From IMG/VR virus record IMGVR_UViG_3300036769_000253: 64,000 bases of DNA; one strand, written 5' to 3'. Positions 17,045 to 54,945 of this stretch are shown here, piece by piece. How positions within the stretch are numbered: position 1 is the stretch's first letter; every line of letters starts with the position of its first letter. This DNA comes from a virus (Duplodnaviria; Heunggongvirae; Uroviricota; Caudoviricetes). Made by a program: the position numbers and the translations under genes. The notes beneath the pieces are model-generated. The model was not told where the DNA came from. It did not search any database and saw only the letters and a program-made list of their open reading frames with translations.

Positions 17045-17298
17045 CTGATAATAGTAAAAGATCCCATATAAGGATCTTTATTACTGTCAAAAACTAATAA
17101 GAACTCTAATAGGAGATCCGCAGATGTATTCTCATTTATTTGATTGACTGGTGGTGCTGCGGCTGGAGGGAACTATCCTTTTTCTATATATGCTGAGTAT
17201 ATAGAAACAAAAGACATTACTAATTGGAGTCTTTTACATCTAGGCTAATAAAATCTTTGGGTATTAGCTTGTTTTTCTTTCCATTAGTTTTTTTAATT

Positions 17299-17336
17299 GG
17301 GGAGATGGCAGAGTAGGTTTAATGCGGCTCCCTGCT
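17299..17336 (+). tRNA. split type II tRNA (Ser-like, probable anticodon GCT), 5-prime half
   Basis: Acceptor GGGGAGA plus D arm plus anticodon stem GCTCC and loop start CTGCT. Matches the E. coli tRNA-Ser(GCU) layout. The boundary inside the anticodon loop is approximate. Confidence 0.6.
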
Positions 17337-17804
17337 TTGGATAACTAAGTAGATTTTACCATTTATGATATGGATACTAATACAATAGGTAAAATAACAG
17401 AATTAAAAGTTTTATCTTATGTAATAGAACAGGGTTATTCAGTATCAATCCCATTTGGTGACAAAGATAGATATGATCAAATATGGGATATAAATGGAAA
17501 GCTGATTAGAGTACAAGTTAAAACTTCAAGATGGAAAAATGAACAGCAAAAAGCAATTATTTTTAGTTGTAAATCTTCCTATGTAAGAAGCACTGGCGTA
17601 AAAGCGCATACTTATTCTAAAAATGAAATTGATTTTTTTGCGACTTACTGGAATGGAAAAGTTTATCTAATTCCAGTAGAAGAATGTTCAACTGAAAAGA
17701 CATTATGGTTTGAAAAACCTTCGAACGGTTGTTTAAAATGTTCTTTTGCAGCAGATTATGAAATGGAGGTGACACTTGGTAAAATCTAATAGCATATCTG
17801 AAGC
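17337..17804 (+). other. intervening sequence in anticodon loop of split tRNA (group I-type tRNA intron candidate with nested endonuclease ORF)
   Basis: Flanked by complementary tRNA halves. Boundaries are approximate. Confidence 0.5.
17370..17789 (+). CDS. endonuclease encoded inside a split tRNA gene (PD-(D/E)XK-like motif IWD...VQVK)
   Basis: Lies entirely within the 0.47-kb insertion between the tRNA halves. Analogous to intron-encoded homing nucleases of tRNA introns. Confidence 0.5.
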   Translation: MDTNTIGKITELKVLSYVIEQGYSVSIPFGDKDRYDQIWDINGKLIRVQVKTSRWKNEQQKAIIFSCKSSYVRSTGVKAHTYSKNEIDFFATYWNGKVYLIPVEECSTEKTLWFEKPSNGCLKCSFAADYEMEVTLGKI

Positions 17805-17856
17805 AAGGAGTTGATCCTCGTAAGAGGGTCCGGGGGTTCGAATCCCCCTCTCCCCG
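17805..17856 (+). tRNA. split type II tRNA, 3-prime half
   Basis: Anticodon stem GGAGT, 19-nt variable arm hairpin, T arm GGGGGTTCGAATCCCCC, and acceptor TCTCCCC that is perfectly complementary to the 5-prime half. Confidence 0.6.
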
Positions 17857-17991
17857 TGAAGCGGATAAGATTGCGGCTTGCCAAGCGCTTATCAAAAATC
17901 CTTCTAAGGTTTATTCCTAAAGGCAAGAGGAATAAAATAGTAAGGGGTAAAACGTCGGATGCGATTTCGCTTAATGTCACCCTTACAATTT

Positions 17992-52740: not shown

Positions 52741-54273
52741 ATGGCAGATAAAGAAACTAAAATGAATTATGGTGTAGAGGATATTAAAACTCTTGAAGGC
52801 ATTGAAGCTATTCGACTTAGACCAGGAATGTATATCGGTTCAGTTGGTCCAGAAGGAGTTAGACATATTACTCTTGAAATTATCTCAAATGCAGTAGATG
52901 AATATTTGAATGGATTTTGTACTGAATGTAAAGTTCAAGTGGGTGATCTTGATAAAGGAGAATTTATTGTTATTACTGATAATGGTAGAGGAGTTCCTTT
53001 TGGAGAAGCAGAAGATGGATCTGAAACACTTGTAAATATTTACACAAAGCTTCATACAGGAGCAAAATTTGATAGTTCTGGAAAAACTGGATATAATACA
53101 TCTGGAGGAATGAATGGTGTTGGAGCAAAAGCGACTAATGCTCTTTCTGAATTATTTAGTGTAAGTTCAGCAAGAGATGGAAAACTTGCTTTAGCATCTT
53201 TTAAAAAGGGACAACTTGTAAAATTCAAAACTGAGGATTGGCGAAAAGATGATCATGGAACTTCCATTCAGTTTAGACCAGATCCAGAGATTTTTAAAGA
53301 AGGAATTGATATTTCCTATGATTCTTTAAGAAATCAGTTACAAGAATTAGCTTATCTTTCTCCTGGGTTAACTTTTAAATTAACTTATAAAGATAAACCA
53401 GAAGAGATTATTGTATCAAAGAATGGAATCCTTGATTATATTGAAGATTTAAATAAGAATAAACAAACAATAACTTCTACTTTTTATGCGGAAAGTAGTG
53501 AAGATAGAATTGGCGTAAAAATGGCAATGGTTTATAATACAACTTATTCTGATACATATAAGTTGTTTACAAACTCAATTCCGAATACTGGTGGAACACA
53601 TCTTACAGGTTTTAGAACTGCGCTCACACAGACAATTAATGAGTATGCTAGAGAGAAGAAGCTTCTTAAAGAGAAAGATGCTAATATATCTGGCGATGAA
53701 CTAAAAGAAGGATTAGTTTTAGTTCTTTCTTTTATTATGCCAGATCCAGTATTTTCTGGTCAGACAAAGGAAGTCCTTTCCAGTAGTGAAGCAAGAACAA
53801 TGGTTCAAAGATTAACTTCTAAAGAGATTAAAATTTGGCTTGATTCACATCCGAATGATGCAAAAGCAATTATTGAAAAAGCATTATTAGCACGAGCGGC
53901 TAGAGAAAAAGCTAAAAAAGCAAAAGAGACAGTTCGTAAACAGGATGCTAAAAAGAGAACTGTATTACCTGGAACTTTGGCAGATGCAAGTTCTAAAAAA
54001 CGTTCTGAATGTGAAGTCTTTATTGTAGAAGGAAAATCTGCTGCAGGCACTACAAAGGAAGCTCGTGATAGAGGAACTCAAGCAGTATTGCCAGTAAGAG
54101 GTAAAATCCTTAACACACTTAAAGTTGATCTTCATAAGGCTCTTGGAAACCAAGAGATCAATGCAATGATTGATGCTTTTGGATTGGAAATTAAAGATGG
54201 AAAAGTAATTGTTGATGAATCAAAATTACGATATGGAAAAATTATTATTACTGCTGATGCAGATGTAGATGGT
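52741..54273 (+). CDS. gyrB: type II topoisomerase B subunit (GyrB / T4 gp39-like), exon 1 (ATPase plus Toprim)
   Basis: GHKL ATPase motifs (EIISNAVDE, ITDNGRGVP). Exon ends at the conserved DADVDG. The ORF-track extension beyond 54273 is intron read-through. Confidence 0.8.
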
Positions 54274-54555
54274 CAAATGTGGGCCAATGAAAAACTTTTC
54301 GCTTTATCAGGCGGGTATTAAATTTAGTAGAAATTTAATGCTAACGGGGAAAGGTTATATACTCAATCCCGTGGGAAACTTATATTATTTATAAGATAAT
54401 ATTTGAACCTGTATCGACTATCCCCTAGGCCTTCTGGGCGGGGGAGTACCGGTGCTATTGATACGCACTCAGTTTTTAGGAAACGAAGACTGTTAAAAGG
54501 GGAAATGGTTTCCTTTCTTATTAAGAAAGTAAAAGATAGTCAGTCCTAATAGATG
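54274..54555 (+). other. group I-like self-splicing intron (ORF-less) in gyrB
   Basis: Splits the invariant GyrB sequence DADVDG|SHIR. Follows an exon-terminal U and ends in G. About 75% identical to the element at 62373..62647. Confidence 0.65.
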
Positions 54556-54945
54556 TCACATATTCGTATTTTATTCTTAACTTTTATCTGGAAATTTGCG
54601 CCAGAATTAATTGAAAAAGGATATATTTATGCGGCAGTGCCTCCACTTTATAAAATTACTCAGGGTACAAAAATTCAGTATTTAAAAGATGATGCAGCTC
54701 TTGCAGAATTCAGAAAATCAGCTACAAAATCTTTTGAACTAGGCCGAATGAAAGGTCTAGGTGAGATGGATGCCCATGAAATGGCAGAAACTGTAATGAA
54801 TCCAGAAACTAGAACTCTTAAAAAGATTACTATGGGAGATGTAGCTGAAGTAGCAAATACTTTTATTAGCCTTATGGGTGAATCAGTAACCCCACGTAAG
54901 CAGTTCATTACTGAAAATGCATGGAGGGCAAACGTTGATATATAA
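54556..54945 (+). CDS. gyrB: type II topoisomerase B subunit, exon 2 (C-terminal SHIR...PPLYKI...GLGEM region)
   Basis: Resumes the conserved GyrB sequence SHIRILFLTF in frame after a 282-nt intron. Confidence 0.75.
   Translation, partial: SHIRILFLTFIWKFAPELIEKGYIYAAVPPLYKITQGTKIQYLKDDAALAEFRKSATKSFELGRMKGLGEMDAHEMAETVMNPETRTLKKITMGDVAEVANTFISLMGESVTPRKQFITENAWRANVDI

What the first reader, a model, noticed from the sequence alone, without database searches (positions are those of the whole stretch)
17299..17856. tRNA gene split in the anticodon loop by a 0.47-kb insertion encoding a PD-(D/E)XK-like endonuclease
A 5-prime tRNA half (17299..about 17336) and a 3-prime half (about 17805..17856) are separated by a 0.47-kb insertion.

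- The 5-prime half has acceptor GGGGAGA, a D arm, and anticodon stem GCTCC with loop start CTGCT. It is laid out like tRNA-Ser(GCU).
- The 3-prime half has stem GGAGT, a 19-nt variable-arm hairpin, a canonical T arm, and acceptor TCTCCCC that pairs 7 of 7 with the 5-prime acceptor.
- The intervening 468 nt are almost completely filled by ORF 17370..17789. Its IWD...VQVK segment fits a PD-(D/E)XK nuclease pattern, as in the tRNA-fMet intron endonuclease I-Ssp6803I.

Group I introns in tRNA anticodon loops are known in cyanobacteria and alpha-proteobacteria, but this element is unusual. The ORF leaves under 60 nt of non-coding intron, so a ribozyme core would have to overlap the coding sequence. 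Alternatively this could be a different splicing mechanism or a disrupted gene.
Basis: seen in the sequence. Interest (0 to 1): 0.78.

Follow-up and report, generated by a model that had tools for sequence, protein, structure and literature searches.

The report
Ribozyme-less homing-endonuclease intron in phage tRNA
A phage tRNA-Ser gene is interrupted exactly after its anticodon by a mobile 468-base insert that carries only a homing-endonuclease gene and no self-splicing ribozyme, and the same kind of insert sits in at least twelve kinds of phage tRNA, which points to an undescribed way of living inside (and probably being spliced out of) bacterial-virus tRNAs.

Summary
tRNA-Ser(GCU) spans 17299-17856 and is split between nt 36 and 37 by a 468-nt insert (17337-17804). 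ORF 17370-17789 fills the insert and is a clear I-Ssp6803I-family nuclease (PF11645 E=3.5e-27; PDB 2OST E=1e-8).

It is not a group I intron:
- No covariance-model hit, although the same search finds group I cores in control loci.
- No terminal G, and only 48 non-coding nt.
- No suppression of synonymous sites in the ORF.

It belongs to a family. In 44 of 75 IMG/VR loci with a relative of the nuclease, the gene lies in a tRNA at 36|37. Twelve isoacceptors are involved. The intron's last three bases are always complementary to the anticodon, forming a covarying helix (93% paired versus 33-46% in slid controls; G-U 68, A-C 5).

Enterococcus phage EFP01 carries one in tRNA-Asn, and 29 sister phages have the intact gene, which fixes the junction. 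Distant bacterial relatives of the nuclease sit in true group I introns of tRNA-fMet.

Splicing is unproven. My best guess is enzymatic excision and ligation: the window encodes an RNA ligase with healing enzymes, and EFP01 encodes RtcB. The main rival is an unspliced selfish insertion.

The parts
17299..17336 (+). 5' exon of tRNA-Ser(GCU), nt 1-36: acceptor 5' strand, D arm, anticodon stem 5' strand GCTCC, loop CTGCT ending with anticodon GCT
   Evidence: Sequence. ARAGORN with introns. The spliced product is called tRNA-Ser gct.
17337..17804 (+). 468-nt intervening sequence inserted between tRNA nt 36 and 37. It begins TTGGATAAC and ends CTGAAGC.
   Evidence: Junction fixed by the 7-nt anticodon loop and by ARAGORN validation. 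The equivalent junction is proven by intron-less alleles for the EFP01 member. No group I match.
17805..17856 (+). 3' exon of tRNA-Ser(GCU), nt 37-73: AA, anticodon stem 3' strand GGAGT, 19-nt variable arm, T arm, acceptor 3' strand TCTCCCC, discriminator G. No encoded CCA.
   Evidence: Sequence. Rfam partial tRNA-like T-arm matches. ARAGORN.
17370..17789 (+). Homing endonuclease gene, 139 aa, I-Ssp6803I / PDDEXK_5 family. It fills the intron.
   Evidence: PF11645 E=3.5e-27, 95.5 bits against a cutoff of 26.1. PDB 2OST E=1.1e-8. 418 homologues. Invariant E11, D36, D40, Q49, K51.
17333..17343 (+). 5' strand of helix H1: tRNA nt 33-36 (TGCT) plus intron +1..+7 (TTGGATA). The 5' splice site lies inside it (17336|17337).
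   Evidence: MFE fold. Family-wide pair counts and covariation.
17795..17805 (+). 3' strand of helix H1: intron -10..-1 (TATCTGAAGC) plus A37. The last three intron bases, AGC, pair with anticodon GCU. The 3' splice site is 17804|17805.
   Evidence: Pair 34:-1 is formed in 39/39 distinct introns, 35:-2 in 39/39 and 36:-3 in 38/39, across 12 anticodons.
17344..17344 (+). Conserved unpaired A (+8), the 5' side of a 1x2 internal loop
   Evidence: A in 24 of the 27 introns of this architecture.
17793..17794 (+). Conserved unpaired CA (-12,-11), the 3' side of the 1x2 internal loop
   Evidence: CA in 20 of 27.
17345..17361 (+). 5' strand of helix H2 (CTA, then TAGATTTTACCA), lying in the 5' UTR of the endonuclease gene
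   Evidence: MFE fold. In the family, +9:-13 covaries: UA 12, CG 12.
17777..17792 (+). 3' strand of helix H2 (TGGTAAAATCTA, then TAG). It overlaps the last codons and the stop codon of the endonuclease gene.
17765..17769 (+). Shine-Dalgarno-like GGAGG at the 3' end of the ORF. No such motif lies upstream of the start codon.
   Evidence: Present in the last 50 nt in 28/39 introns and in the first 45 nt in 6/39, mutually exclusive, against a background of 0.23 per 50 nt. GAG is enriched at this Glu codon only. A functional role is inferred.
39025..40380 (+). Phage RNA ligase. It is a candidate (inferred, not shown) for sealing the tRNA halves.
   Evidence: PF09414. 49% identity over the full length to the Bacillus phage Kirov 'RNA ligase'.
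43790..46287 (+). Metallophosphoesterase, AAA_33 kinase-like P-loop protein and a second metallophosphoesterase. These are candidate end-healing enzymes (inferred).
   Evidence: Pfam. Further RNA-repair-type genes lie at 33513-38950.

Best explanation
Shown:
- The element is a mobile insertion that carries an I-Ssp6803I-family homing endonuclease gene. It sits exactly between nt 36 and 37 of a phage tRNA-Ser(GCU) gene.
- It belongs to a large phage-borne family that occupies the same position in at least 12 tRNA isoacceptors.
- It has no group I ribozyme.
- Its two short non-coding ends pair with each other and with the anticodon, extending the anticodon stem into a long helix that shows strong covariation.

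Inferred:
- The endonuclease spreads the element by cutting intron-less tRNA genes (homing).
- The helix is an RNA-level signal that lets the insert be removed from the pre-tRNA by proteins rather than by self-splicing.
- In this model an as yet unidentified endonuclease cuts both strands of the helix at sites 3 bp apart. These sites are 17336|17337 and 17804|17805.
- The tRNA halves, still held together by the acceptor and anticodon stems, are then sealed. The candidate sealing enzymes are a phage RNA ligase with kinase and phosphoesterase healing enzymes in this window, and RtcB in Enterococcus phage EFP01.
- The excised intron, possibly circularised, folds into a hairpin. That hairpin brings a Shine-Dalgarno-like GGAGG at the ORF's 3' end next to the start codon.
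For: Identity and mobility:
- Pfam and PDB matches.
- 29 Schiekvirus phages carry the same locus at about 97% identity without the 463-bp insert, annotated tRNA-Asn. The alignment gives ACTGG-CTGTT|AA-CCAGT with no target duplication.
- A 94%-identical endonuclease and intron sit in a tRNA-Ser(GCU) whose acceptor, variable and T arms differ from the window's, while the anticodon stem is identical.

Not group I:
- Searches are negative, with positive controls.
- The last intron base is the complement of nt 34 (C, A or G).
- The last exon base is U, A, C or G.
- The ORF fills the intron, with a 5' UTR of 3-40 nt and 2-16 nt after the stop.
- Four-fold synonymous sites are at background entropy along the whole ORF.

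RNA helix:
- 93.3% of cells are paired, against 57.6% in shuffles and 33-46% in slid controls.
- 15 of 16 pairs change on both sides. The covariation score is 0.948 against 0.236.
- There are 68 G-U against 5 A-C, as expected for a sense-strand RNA structure.
- The four pairs flanking the splice sites are the best conserved, at 97-100%.
- H2 covaries as well.

Ligation capacity:
- RNA ligase, AAA_33 kinase, three metallophosphoesterases, cREC_REC, RlaP and Thg1-like genes in the window.
- RtcB at E=3.3e-59 in EFP01.

Selection on the gene:
- All 39 distinct introns keep an intact ORF. Six of them need TAG read-through.
- After splicing at 36|37, all 45 loci retained for the junction analysis (39 distinct) give valid tRNAs.
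Against: - No spliced RNA has been seen. All evidence is genomic.
- No candidate endonuclease was found. There is no EndA or RNase III domain among the 59 window ORFs of at least 110 aa that were scanned.
- The helix has no bulge-helix-bulge motif.
- The 3-nt 3' stagger does not fit RNase III, which leaves 2 nt.
- RNA-repair genes are common in large phages for other reasons, such as countering anticodon nucleases. RtcB is presumably also present in EFP01's intron-less sisters, so their presence is permissive rather than specific.
- Loci were found through the protein. This biases the sample towards intact ORFs and cannot reveal ORF-less derivatives.
- Recurrent homing into intact alleles could keep the exons looking healthy even without splicing.
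Confidence: 0.5

Rival explanations
1. Unspliced selfish insertion. The endonuclease gene has simply invaded and inactivated dispensable phage tRNA genes. The conserved helix serves the endonuclease rather than the tRNA. The tRNA halves and the long stem would act as a processing and stability scaffold, cut out of the tRNA-array transcript by RNase P and RNase Z, and would bring the 3'-located GGAGG next to the start codon for translation.
For: - No ribozyme and no splicing enzyme were identified.
- EFP01 is a viable, cultured phage whose only tRNA-Asn is interrupted, while 29 relatives have it intact, so the gene may be dispensable.
- Relatives of the nuclease also occur free-standing beside tRNA genes: L065-L067 and L071, and Vibrio phage phi-pp2.
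- L010/L003 looks like a decayed tRNA-Ser around the gene.
- The GGAGG distribution suggests the helix matters for translation.
Against: - The three intron bases opposite the anticodon have been re-matched to 12 different anticodons. Together with the next pair they are the most conserved pairs of the helix, at 97-100%. That is hard to explain by a generic scaffold role.
- The insertion is always exactly at 36|37, so precise removal restores a canonical 7-nt loop.
- All 45 retained loci, which were selected for this property, have both halves intact. These include diverged endonucleases (35-60% identity) in exons with compensatory acceptor-stem changes.
Confidence: 0.27
2. Self-splicing by a cryptic ribozyme. 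This could be a highly reduced or unrecognised group I derivative overlapping the ORF, or a new small ribozyme built from the paired ends and their conserved internal loop (A/CA, or the box C/D-like CUGA/UGAUG motif in the EFP01 type).
For: - The nuclease family's bacterial relatives live in genuine group I introns of tRNA-fMet, so descent from a group I intron is plausible.
- The internal-loop motifs are conserved.
- The whole precursor folds better than shuffles, z = -5.2.
Against: - No covariance-model hit, although the controls are positive.
- No omega-G and no constant U at the 5' splice site.
- Only about 48 nt are non-coding.
- Synonymous positions are unconstrained through the ORF.
- The three architecture types differ in their loop motifs.
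- No small self-cleaving ribozyme family matched inside any intron.
Confidence: 0.1
3. The homing endonuclease itself is the splicing endonuclease. The RNA helix copies the left half of its DNA target. It places the two splice sites on opposite strands 3 bp apart, around the dyad of the anticodon-stem palindrome, and a phage ligase then seals the halves.
For: - Geometry: 36|+1 and -1|37 are opposite 36|37 and 33|34 in duplex coordinates. The bacterial group I relatives are inserted at 33|34 and the phage clade at 36|37, which are mirror positions about nt 35.
- From my own recollection, not verified here, I-Ssp6803I leaves 3-nt 3' overhangs.
- The protein is unusually conserved (mean column identity 57%) although its tRNA targets differ.
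- Every intron keeps an intact ORF.
Against: - PD-(D/E)XK enzymes with an intact metal site are DNases, and cleavage of A-form double-stranded RNA would be unprecedented.
- The 3-bp stagger follows almost automatically from pairing the intron end to the anticodon next to the universal U33-A37.
- Metal-dependent cleavage gives 5'-P/3'-OH ends, which RtcB (EFP01) cannot join.
- The ascertainment bias towards intact ORFs applies here too.
Confidence: 0.07
4. Host RNase III cuts the long helix and a ligase joins the halves.
For: The coaxial helix of anticodon stem, H1 and H2 spans about 28 bp in the window. RNase III is nearly universal in bacteria (established knowledge).
Against: RNase III leaves 2-nt 3' overhangs. 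Cutting at 36|+1 would leave the intron base -1 on the 3' half and give an 8-nt loop. Its 5'-P/3'-OH ends do not suit RtcB.
Confidence: 0.05

Closest known systems
Group I intron of cyanobacterial and other bacterial tRNA-fMet carrying I-Ssp6803I (PF11645)
   Same: Same nuclease family. Same kind of host site, a tRNA anticodon loop. Both are mobile. Bacterial relatives were recovered here in tRNA-fMet.
   Different: - The bacterial introns are 625-660 nt: the ORF plus a core of about 200 nt that Rfam scores at 53-81 bits.
- They are inserted at 33|34 after U and end in G.
- They have ORF-less versions of 216-218 nt.
- The window's intron is 468 nt with no core, is inserted at 36|37, ends in C, and its 3' end pairs with the anticodon.
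Archaeal bulge-helix-bulge introns, including those that carry homing endonuclease genes, and eukaryotic nuclear tRNA introns with an anticodon-intron helix
   Same: No ribozyme. The intron 3' region pairs with the anticodon region and extends the anticodon stem. The ORF sits in the loop of a long stem. An RtcB-type or heal-and-seal ligase is available. The excised intron may be circular.
   Different: - There are no 3-nt bulges, and the central helix is 3 bp rather than 4 bp.
- The position is 36|37, not 37|38.
- The host is a bacterial virus, where no EndA-type enzyme is known, and none was found in the window.
- The nuclease is PD-(D/E)XK rather than LAGLIDADG.
'Enigmatic' introns of Lak megaphage tRNAs (Devoto et al. 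2019, PMC6784885)
   Same: Phage tRNA genes with insertions that Rfam cannot classify. Presence/absence polymorphism defines the junctions.
   Different: [quoted passage not shown] No anticodon-pairing rule and no endonuclease were reported. I could not test whether they share the helix.
Free-standing homing endonuclease genes in phage tRNA clusters (for example T4 SegB)
   Same: An endonuclease gene spreading within phage tRNA arrays. Some members of this very family are free-standing next to tRNA-Asn or tRNA-Met.
   Different: Here the gene lies inside the tRNA, at a fixed nucleotide, with flanking RNA pairing that covaries with the anticodon.

Membership tests
Group I intron | Conserved catalytic core (P3-P9) recognisable by covariance model RF00028 | tested here: not met
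   No hit at E<=10 on 17200-17950, none in 20 related loci at E<=1, and none in L212-L214. Controls scored 62.9 bits and 53-81 bits on six loci, including four that carry a PF11645 ORF.
Group I intron | Terminal guanosine (omega-G) at the intron 3' end | tested here: not met
   The window intron ends ...GAAGC. Across 39 introns the last base is C, A or G and is always the complement of nt 34.
Group I intron | U at the 5' splice site, pairing with G in P1 | tested here: not met
   The window has U36. Family-wide, the last exon base is also A (Trp CCA, Cys GCA), C (Val UAC, Ala UGC) or G (Pro UGG). That base pairs with the intron's 3' end, not with an internal guide near the 5' end.
Group I intron | Enough RNA for the core: the smallest bacterial tRNA group I intron is 184 nt (PMC13011429) | tested here: not met
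   33 + 15 non-coding nt. Conserved-codon columns show background synonymous entropy along the whole ORF.
Group I intron | Guanosine-dependent self-splicing in vitro | not testable with these tools
   Needs transcription and splicing assays.
I-Ssp6803I / PDDEXK_5 homing endonucleases | Match to PF11645 above the curated cutoff | tested here: met
   95.5 bits against a cutoff of 26.1, E=3.5e-27, covering residues 1-131 of 139.
I-Ssp6803I / PDDEXK_5 homing endonucleases | Sequence similarity to the solved I-Ssp6803I structure and conserved acidic/lysine motif | tested here: met
   2OST E=1.1e-8 over residues 5-103. E11, D36, D40, Q49 and K51 are invariant in 40 sequences. Assigning these residues as catalytic rests on my recollection of the 2OST work.
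I-Ssp6803I / PDDEXK_5 homing endonucleases | Mobility: alleles with and without the element, and a precise junction without target duplication | tested here: met
   Met for the EFP01 member. No intron-less allele was found in IMG/VR for the window's own tRNA, but the same intron occurs in a divergent tRNA-Ser gene.
I-Ssp6803I / PDDEXK_5 homing endonucleases | Site-specific cleavage of the intron-less tRNA gene | not testable with these tools
   Needs the purified protein.
Bulge-helix-bulge (EndA-spliced) introns | Two 3-nt bulges separated by a 4-bp helix, with the splice sites in the bulges | tested here: not met
   The predicted and covarying structure is a continuous helix with the splice sites 3 bp apart. 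The pairs on both sides of the 5' site are formed in 97% of introns.
Bulge-helix-bulge (EndA-spliced) introns | EndA/Sen-type splicing endonuclease in the host or virus | tested here: inconclusive
   None among the window ORFs scanned. Only 64 kb of the phage was seen and none of the host.
Bulge-helix-bulge (EndA-spliced) introns | RNA ligase able to join the halves | tested here: met
   RNA ligase plus kinase and phosphoesterases in the window. RtcB in EFP01. Their use in splicing is inferred.
Free-standing endonuclease gene / pseudogenised tRNA | tRNA halves decayed or unrelated | tested here: not met
   The halves join into a canonical class II tRNA-Ser. The same holds for the 45 retained loci, which were selected for yielding a valid tRNA. 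Whether the tRNA is functional is not testable here.

The most novel reading that the evidence does not exclude
Bacteriophages harbour a hitherto undescribed class of tRNA intron that has shed the group I ribozyme of its ancestors. It is defined only by an anticodon-intron helix and is removed by protein enzymes. The excised, possibly circular, RNA serves as the messenger for its own homing endonuclease, with the Shine-Dalgarno sequence at the ORF's 3' end brought to the start codon by the hairpin. This would be a living bacterial-virus counterpart of the proposed origin of archaeal bulge-helix-bulge introns from group I introns.
Probability: 0.4. Interest if true: 0.92.

Novelty: new variant of a known kind. 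Interest (0 to 1): 0.8.

Why it matters
In bacteria and their viruses, tRNA introns are taken to be self-splicing, mostly group I and rarely group II. Protein-dependent tRNA splicing is considered an archaeal and eukaryotic trait.

A widespread phage intron family with no ribozyme would challenge that division. It has a fixed insertion point and a helix that tracks the anticodon. It may also explain some of the 'enigmatic' phage tRNA introns.

The family gives a concrete evolutionary series within one endonuclease family: group I with ORF, ORF-less group I, ribozyme-less with ORF, and free-standing.

It also matters practically. Standard tRNA finders miss these genes, so phage tRNA repertoires are under-counted. 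ARAGORN and Rfam both missed this tRNA-Ser, and the tRNA-Asn of EFP01 is unannotated.

The question can be tested directly because a cultured phage with the intron (EFP01) and near-identical phages without it (for example EFDG1 and iF6) exist.

Tried and rejected
Group I intron: rejected (see the membership test).

Bulge-helix-bulge motif: no bulges in the fold or in the covariation data.

Small self-cleaving ribozymes: no Rfam match inside any intron. The weak twister-P1-like and HDV-like hits in L020 and L040 lie outside the interrupted tRNAs.

Target-site duplication or a DNA-level origin for the complementarity:
- The repeat is inverted, not direct.
- It is rich in G-U (68) against A-C (5).
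- A sense-strand single-stranded DNA hairpin cannot be formally excluded.

Intron-less allele of the window's own tRNA-Ser: two exact-pattern scans of IMG/VR found nothing.

ORF-less derivatives:
- A 14-mer scan was too unspecific, giving 120 mostly chance hits and one true one.
- ARAGORN on 1.39 Mb of held sequence gave only artefacts and a few unrelated short insertions.

Circular-RNA evidence: short contigs (506-588 nt) that carry the gene turned out to be ordinary DNA fragments with exon flanks and no terminal overlap.

RNA ligase co-occurrence across all intron-bearing contigs: not feasible with the flanks available. Only the window and EFP01 were examined.

L062/L063: tRNA-Asn with 607-617-nt introns at 35|36 that end in G. 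They look like group I introns with the same nuclease family, but Rfam did not confirm this, so they are left unresolved.

Literature: eight full-text searches found no description of endonuclease-bearing, non-group-I tRNA introns in phages. The I-Ssp6803I primary papers were not available.
Full report
**1. The observation**

The window is part of a large phage genome. It carries a tRNA array between 13.3 and 28.6 kb (21 ARAGORN genes; 24 Rfam tRNA matches). It also carries a sigma factor, endolysins, gyrase and a NAD-dependent DNA ligase.

- Acceptor GGGGAGA/TCTCCCC pairs 7 of 7, and the discriminator is G.
- There is a D arm and a canonical T arm.
- The anticodon stem is GCTCC/GGAGT.
- The loop is CTGCT...AA.
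- The variable arm is 19 nt.

Neither ARAGORN in default mode nor Rfam calls a tRNA here. With introns allowed, ARAGORN reports one tRNA with a 468-nt intron. Joining 17336 to 17805 gives a sequence called tRNA-Ser(GCU). The window has no other tRNA-Ser(GCU).

ORF 17370-17789 (139 aa) leaves 33 nt of intron before it and 15 nt after it.

**2. The protein**

The ORF matches Pfam PF11645 (PDDEXK_5) at E=3.5e-27. It matches the solved structure of I-Ssp6803I (2OST) at E=1.1e-8.

It has 418 homologues in the large protein collection, and all 120 listed carry PF11645. In an alignment of 40 of them the mean column identity is 57%, and E11, D36, D40, Q49 and K51 are invariant.

**3. It is not a group I intron**

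Covariance-model search:
- On 17200-17950 at E<=10 it finds no Intron_gpI match.
- It finds none in 20 related loci nor in three further ones.
- The negative result is meaningful because the same tool scores 62.9 bits on an ordinary group I tRNA-Leu intron that happened to be in a fetched phage contig.
- It also scores 53-81 bits on six bacterial tRNA-fMet loci found with the same endonuclease profile. Four of these contain the ORF.

Sequence features:
- The window intron ends in C.
- Across the family the last base is whatever complements tRNA position 34.
- The last exon base is U, A, C or G. Both defining splice-site nucleotides of group I introns are thus absent.

Room for a core:
- The smallest bacterial tRNA group I intron in a recent survey is 184 nt (PMC13011429). 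Here 48 nt are non-coding.
- A core hidden in the ORF is unlikely. In conserved amino-acid columns the four-fold and six-fold degenerate codons show about background entropy along the whole gene.

**4. It is one of a family**

A profile scan of IMG/VR returned 75 loci encoding relatives.

I scanned each locus for a 5-bp stem followed by the expected helix. I then required that the spliced product be called a tRNA with the anticodon in the predicted place (with a few manual corrections). Of the 75 loci, 44 have the gene inside a tRNA. Adding the window gives 45 loci and 39 distinct sequences. In all of them the insertion is between nt 36 and 37.

The hosts, counted over the 39 distinct sequences, are:

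| tRNA (anticodon) | Count |
|---|---|
| Asn (GUU) | 10 |
| Thr (UGU) | 8 |
| Pro (UGG) | 4 |
| Lys (UUU) | 4 |
| Ser (GCU) | 3 |
| Trp (CCA) | 3 |
| Val (UAC) | 2 |
| Arg (UCU) | 1 |
| Ile (GAU) | 1 |
| Ile? (UAU) | 1 |
| Ala (UGC) | 1 |
| Cys (GCA) | 1 |

More tRNA-Ser(GCU) examples came from metagenome and MAG contigs.

Introns are 439-488 nt, or 674-848 nt where the protein carries an extra zinc-ribbon and helix-turn-helix tail. In every case the ORF nearly fills the intron. Six ORFs are interrupted only by TAG codons, as expected for TAG-recoded phages.

Other relatives are free-standing next to tRNA genes.

**5. Proof of the junction and of mobility**

Enterococcus phage EFP01 is a cultured Schiekvirus. 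It has a 47%-identical gene inside a split tRNA-Asn(GUU) that its annotation misses.

Twenty-nine related Enterococcus phages match the flanks at about 92-99% identity but lack 463 bp, and annotate an intact tRNA-Asn there. Alignment of EFDG1 with both EFP01 junctions shows that the insert lies exactly between T36 and A37, with no duplication.

For the window type, a 94%-identical endonuclease and intron sit in a tRNA-Ser(GCU) with different acceptor, variable and T arms but an identical anticodon stem. That pattern is expected from homing with short co-conversion tracts.

**6. The conserved RNA structure**

The minimum-free-energy fold of the precursor keeps the cloverleaf and continues the anticodon stem. 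The pairs in H1 are U33-A37, G34-C(-1), C35-G(-2), U36-A(-3), then +1..+7 with -4..-10. Beyond H1 comes a 1x2 internal loop (A against CA). Then comes a second helix (H2) between the 5' UTR and the last codons plus 3' UTR. In the window H2 includes 12 perfect pairs.

Over the 39 distinct sequences:
- 93.3% of cells pair, against 57.6% after shuffling and 33-46% when partners are slid by 1-3 columns.
- 15 of 16 pairs show changes on both sides.
- The covariation score is 0.948 against 0.236.
- Pairs 34:-1 and 35:-2 are formed in 39/39, and 36:-3 and +1:-4 in 38/39. These are the best-conserved pairs of the helix.
- The helix contains 68 G-U but only 5 A-C. This points to a structure in the sense strand, most simply the RNA.

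Twenty-seven introns share the A/CA loop and an H2 whose first pair covaries between U-A and C-G. The EFP01 group instead has a box D/box C-like CUGA...UGAUG arrangement. The tRNA-Lys group has yet another motif.

What is constant is the geometry next to the tRNA body. The two junctions lie on opposite strands of a continuous helix, 3 bp apart.

**7. Where the family comes from**

A scan of one genome per prokaryotic species found close relatives (53-66% identity) only on short tRNA-rich contigs of Bacillota and Erysipelotrichia MAGs. All of these are of the compact type.

Distant relatives (25-36%) occur in Omnitrophota, Planctomycetota, Patescibacteria, Bacteroidota and others. They sit in tRNA-fMet genes at 33|34, in introns of 625-660 nt that end in G and contain a recognisable group I core downstream of the ORF. 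ORF-less 216-218-nt versions were also found.

The same endonuclease family therefore occurs in classical group I introns, in ribozyme-less introns and as free-standing genes.

**8. How it may work**

Shown: mobility, the absence of a ribozyme, and a selected RNA helix that tracks the anticodon.

Inferred: the helix marks the insert for removal from the pre-tRNA.

I favour enzymatic cut-and-seal (confidence about 0.5), for three reasons:
- Precise removal at the two junctions restores a canonical loop in every retained member.
- The pairs flanking the junctions are the most constrained.
- Both phages examined can join RNA ends.

On the last point, the window encodes an RNA ligase (49% identical to that of Bacillus phage Kirov). 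It also encodes an AAA_33 kinase-like protein, three metallophosphoesterases and a cyclic-phosphate-processing receiver domain. RlaP-like, HD, Thg1-like, NADAR and RNase T genes are present too. EFP01 encodes RtcB (E=3.3e-59).

The cutting enzyme is unknown:
- No EndA or RNase III domain is present in the window.
- The structure lacks the bulges that EndA needs.
- The 3-nt stagger does not fit RNase III.
- The endonuclease itself is a long shot. The RNA helix mimics half of its DNA target, and the junctions fall where a dyad-symmetric enzyme centred on nt 35 would cut. The bacterial (33|34) and phage (36|37) insertion sites are mirror images. But cleavage of double-stranded RNA by a PD-(D/E)XK enzyme would be unprecedented.

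**9. An unexpected detail**

Most of these ORFs have no Shine-Dalgarno sequence before the start codon. Instead, GGAG/GAGG lies 26-41 nt before the intron's 3' end in 28 of 39 introns. The six introns with such a motif in the 5' UTR lack the 3' one. The background rate is 0.23 per 50 nt.

The Glu codon involved is GAG in 17 of 27 cases, whereas other conserved Glu columns are mostly GAA (70-100%).

If the intron ends are joined, the window sequence folds into a -17.5 kcal/mol hairpin with an AGC triloop. GGAGG then lies 7 nt before the stem, and the start codon follows about 8 nt after it.

This suggests, without proving, that the helix (or a circular intron) assembles the ribosome-binding site.

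**10. The main rival**

The insert may never be spliced (about 0.27). Phage tRNAs are often dispensable. EFP01 grows with its only tRNA-Asn interrupted. Homing into intact alleles could keep the exons looking intact. The helix might serve expression and stability of the endonuclease messenger inside a tRNA scaffold.

Against this stand the anticodon-specific re-matching of three intron bases in 12 different tRNAs and the invariant 36|37 position.

**11. Novelty**

Full-text searches found group I tRNA introns in bacteria and 'enigmatic', unclassified tRNA introns in Lak megaphages. The latter paper stated that phage tRNA introns had not been reported before. The searches also found PDDEXK_5 genes counted as stand-alone endonucleases in gut jumbo phages.

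I found no description of endonuclease-bearing, ribozyme-less tRNA introns with an anticodon-pairing rule. The library is incomplete, so prior description cannot be excluded.

I rate it a new variant of a known kind (mobile tRNA introns with an I-Ssp6803I-type endonuclease). There is a substantial chance (about 0.4) that it is a new class of intron in mechanistic terms.

Noticed in passing
window 28412-28534: A 123-nt Rfam tRNA match (34.9 bits). It is a tRNA-Tyr(GUA)-like gene with a 41-nt insertion between the D arm and the anticodon loop, flanked by the near-repeat CCGGA/CTGGA. It does not follow the 36|37 helix rule. It is another unclassified short tRNA insertion, comparable to the 'enigmatic' Lak phage introns.
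   Followed up: partly
window 20464-20552; also L005/L012, L212 1174-1265, L078 1017-1103: tRNA with anticodon UAU (Ile) but a long, class II-like variable arm (87-95 nt in total). It recurs in several of these phage tRNA arrays, so its identity or charging may be unusual.
   Followed up: no
window 29149-46287: A dense block of RNA-repair-type genes: Thg1-like, HD, RlaP-like nucleotidyltransferase, three metallophosphoesterases, RNase T-like exonuclease, cREC_REC, RNA ligase, YqeY, NADAR and an AAA_33 kinase. It is preceded by a DUF2828/DUF7788 protein and a major-vault-protein-like protein of 814 aa.
   Followed up: partly
window 52741-54942: gyrB is split into two ORFs (52741-54318 and 54553-54942) separated by about 230 nt with no ORF. 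This may be a small intron, but the Rfam gathering scan found nothing there.
   Followed up: no
window 17765-17769 and the 3' ends of related introns: A Shine-Dalgarno-like GGAGG lies at the 3' end of the endonuclease ORF instead of upstream of its start codon. It is mutually exclusive with a 5' motif across 39 introns, which suggests a split or circular-RNA ribosome-binding site.
   Followed up: partly
L087 6240-6826 (Enterococcus phage EFP01, record 106240-106826): A full-length ROOL RNA (264.8 bits) lies in the tRNA array, about 270 nt downstream of the interrupted tRNA-Asn. It is unannotated in the record.
   Followed up: partly
L087 40218-41459 (EFP01_162): An annotated 'hypothetical protein' is an RtcB RNA ligase, E=3.3e-59.
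   Followed up: yes
L062 451-1144 and L063 461-1143: tRNA-Asn with 607-617-nt introns placed at 35|36 that end in G and carry the same endonuclease family. They look like group I introns but get no Rfam match. L062 also has a tmRNA (61.5 bits) and a YrlA-like hit nearby.
   Followed up: partly
L026, L032, L035, L053, L055, L057: Endonuclease ORFs in these introns are interrupted only by in-frame TAG codons, which indicates phages that reassign TAG.
   Followed up: partly
L017 121-237, L210 592-711, L046 1473-1598: Oversized tRNA-like genes with short insertions that share an ACAGCAA(C/T) motif. The window's tRNA-Tyr insertion has the similar ACTGCAAC. They may form a second family of short phage tRNA insertions.
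   Followed up: no
L020 157-207; L040 1397-1453; L213 379-499: Ribozyme-like or small-RNA matches lie beside, not inside, the interrupted tRNAs. These are twister-P1 (41 bits, below cutoff), an HDV-like ribozyme (31 bits, below cutoff) immediately 3' of the tRNA, and drum RNA (49.7 bits, above cutoff).
   Followed up: no
L209 653-1336 (Enterococcus phage vB_OCPT_Bop) and phage 113: In two sister phages an HNH endonuclease gene (hegA) is inserted just downstream of the intact tRNA-Asn. The same tRNA neighbourhood is therefore targeted by a second, unrelated homing endonuclease.
   Followed up: no
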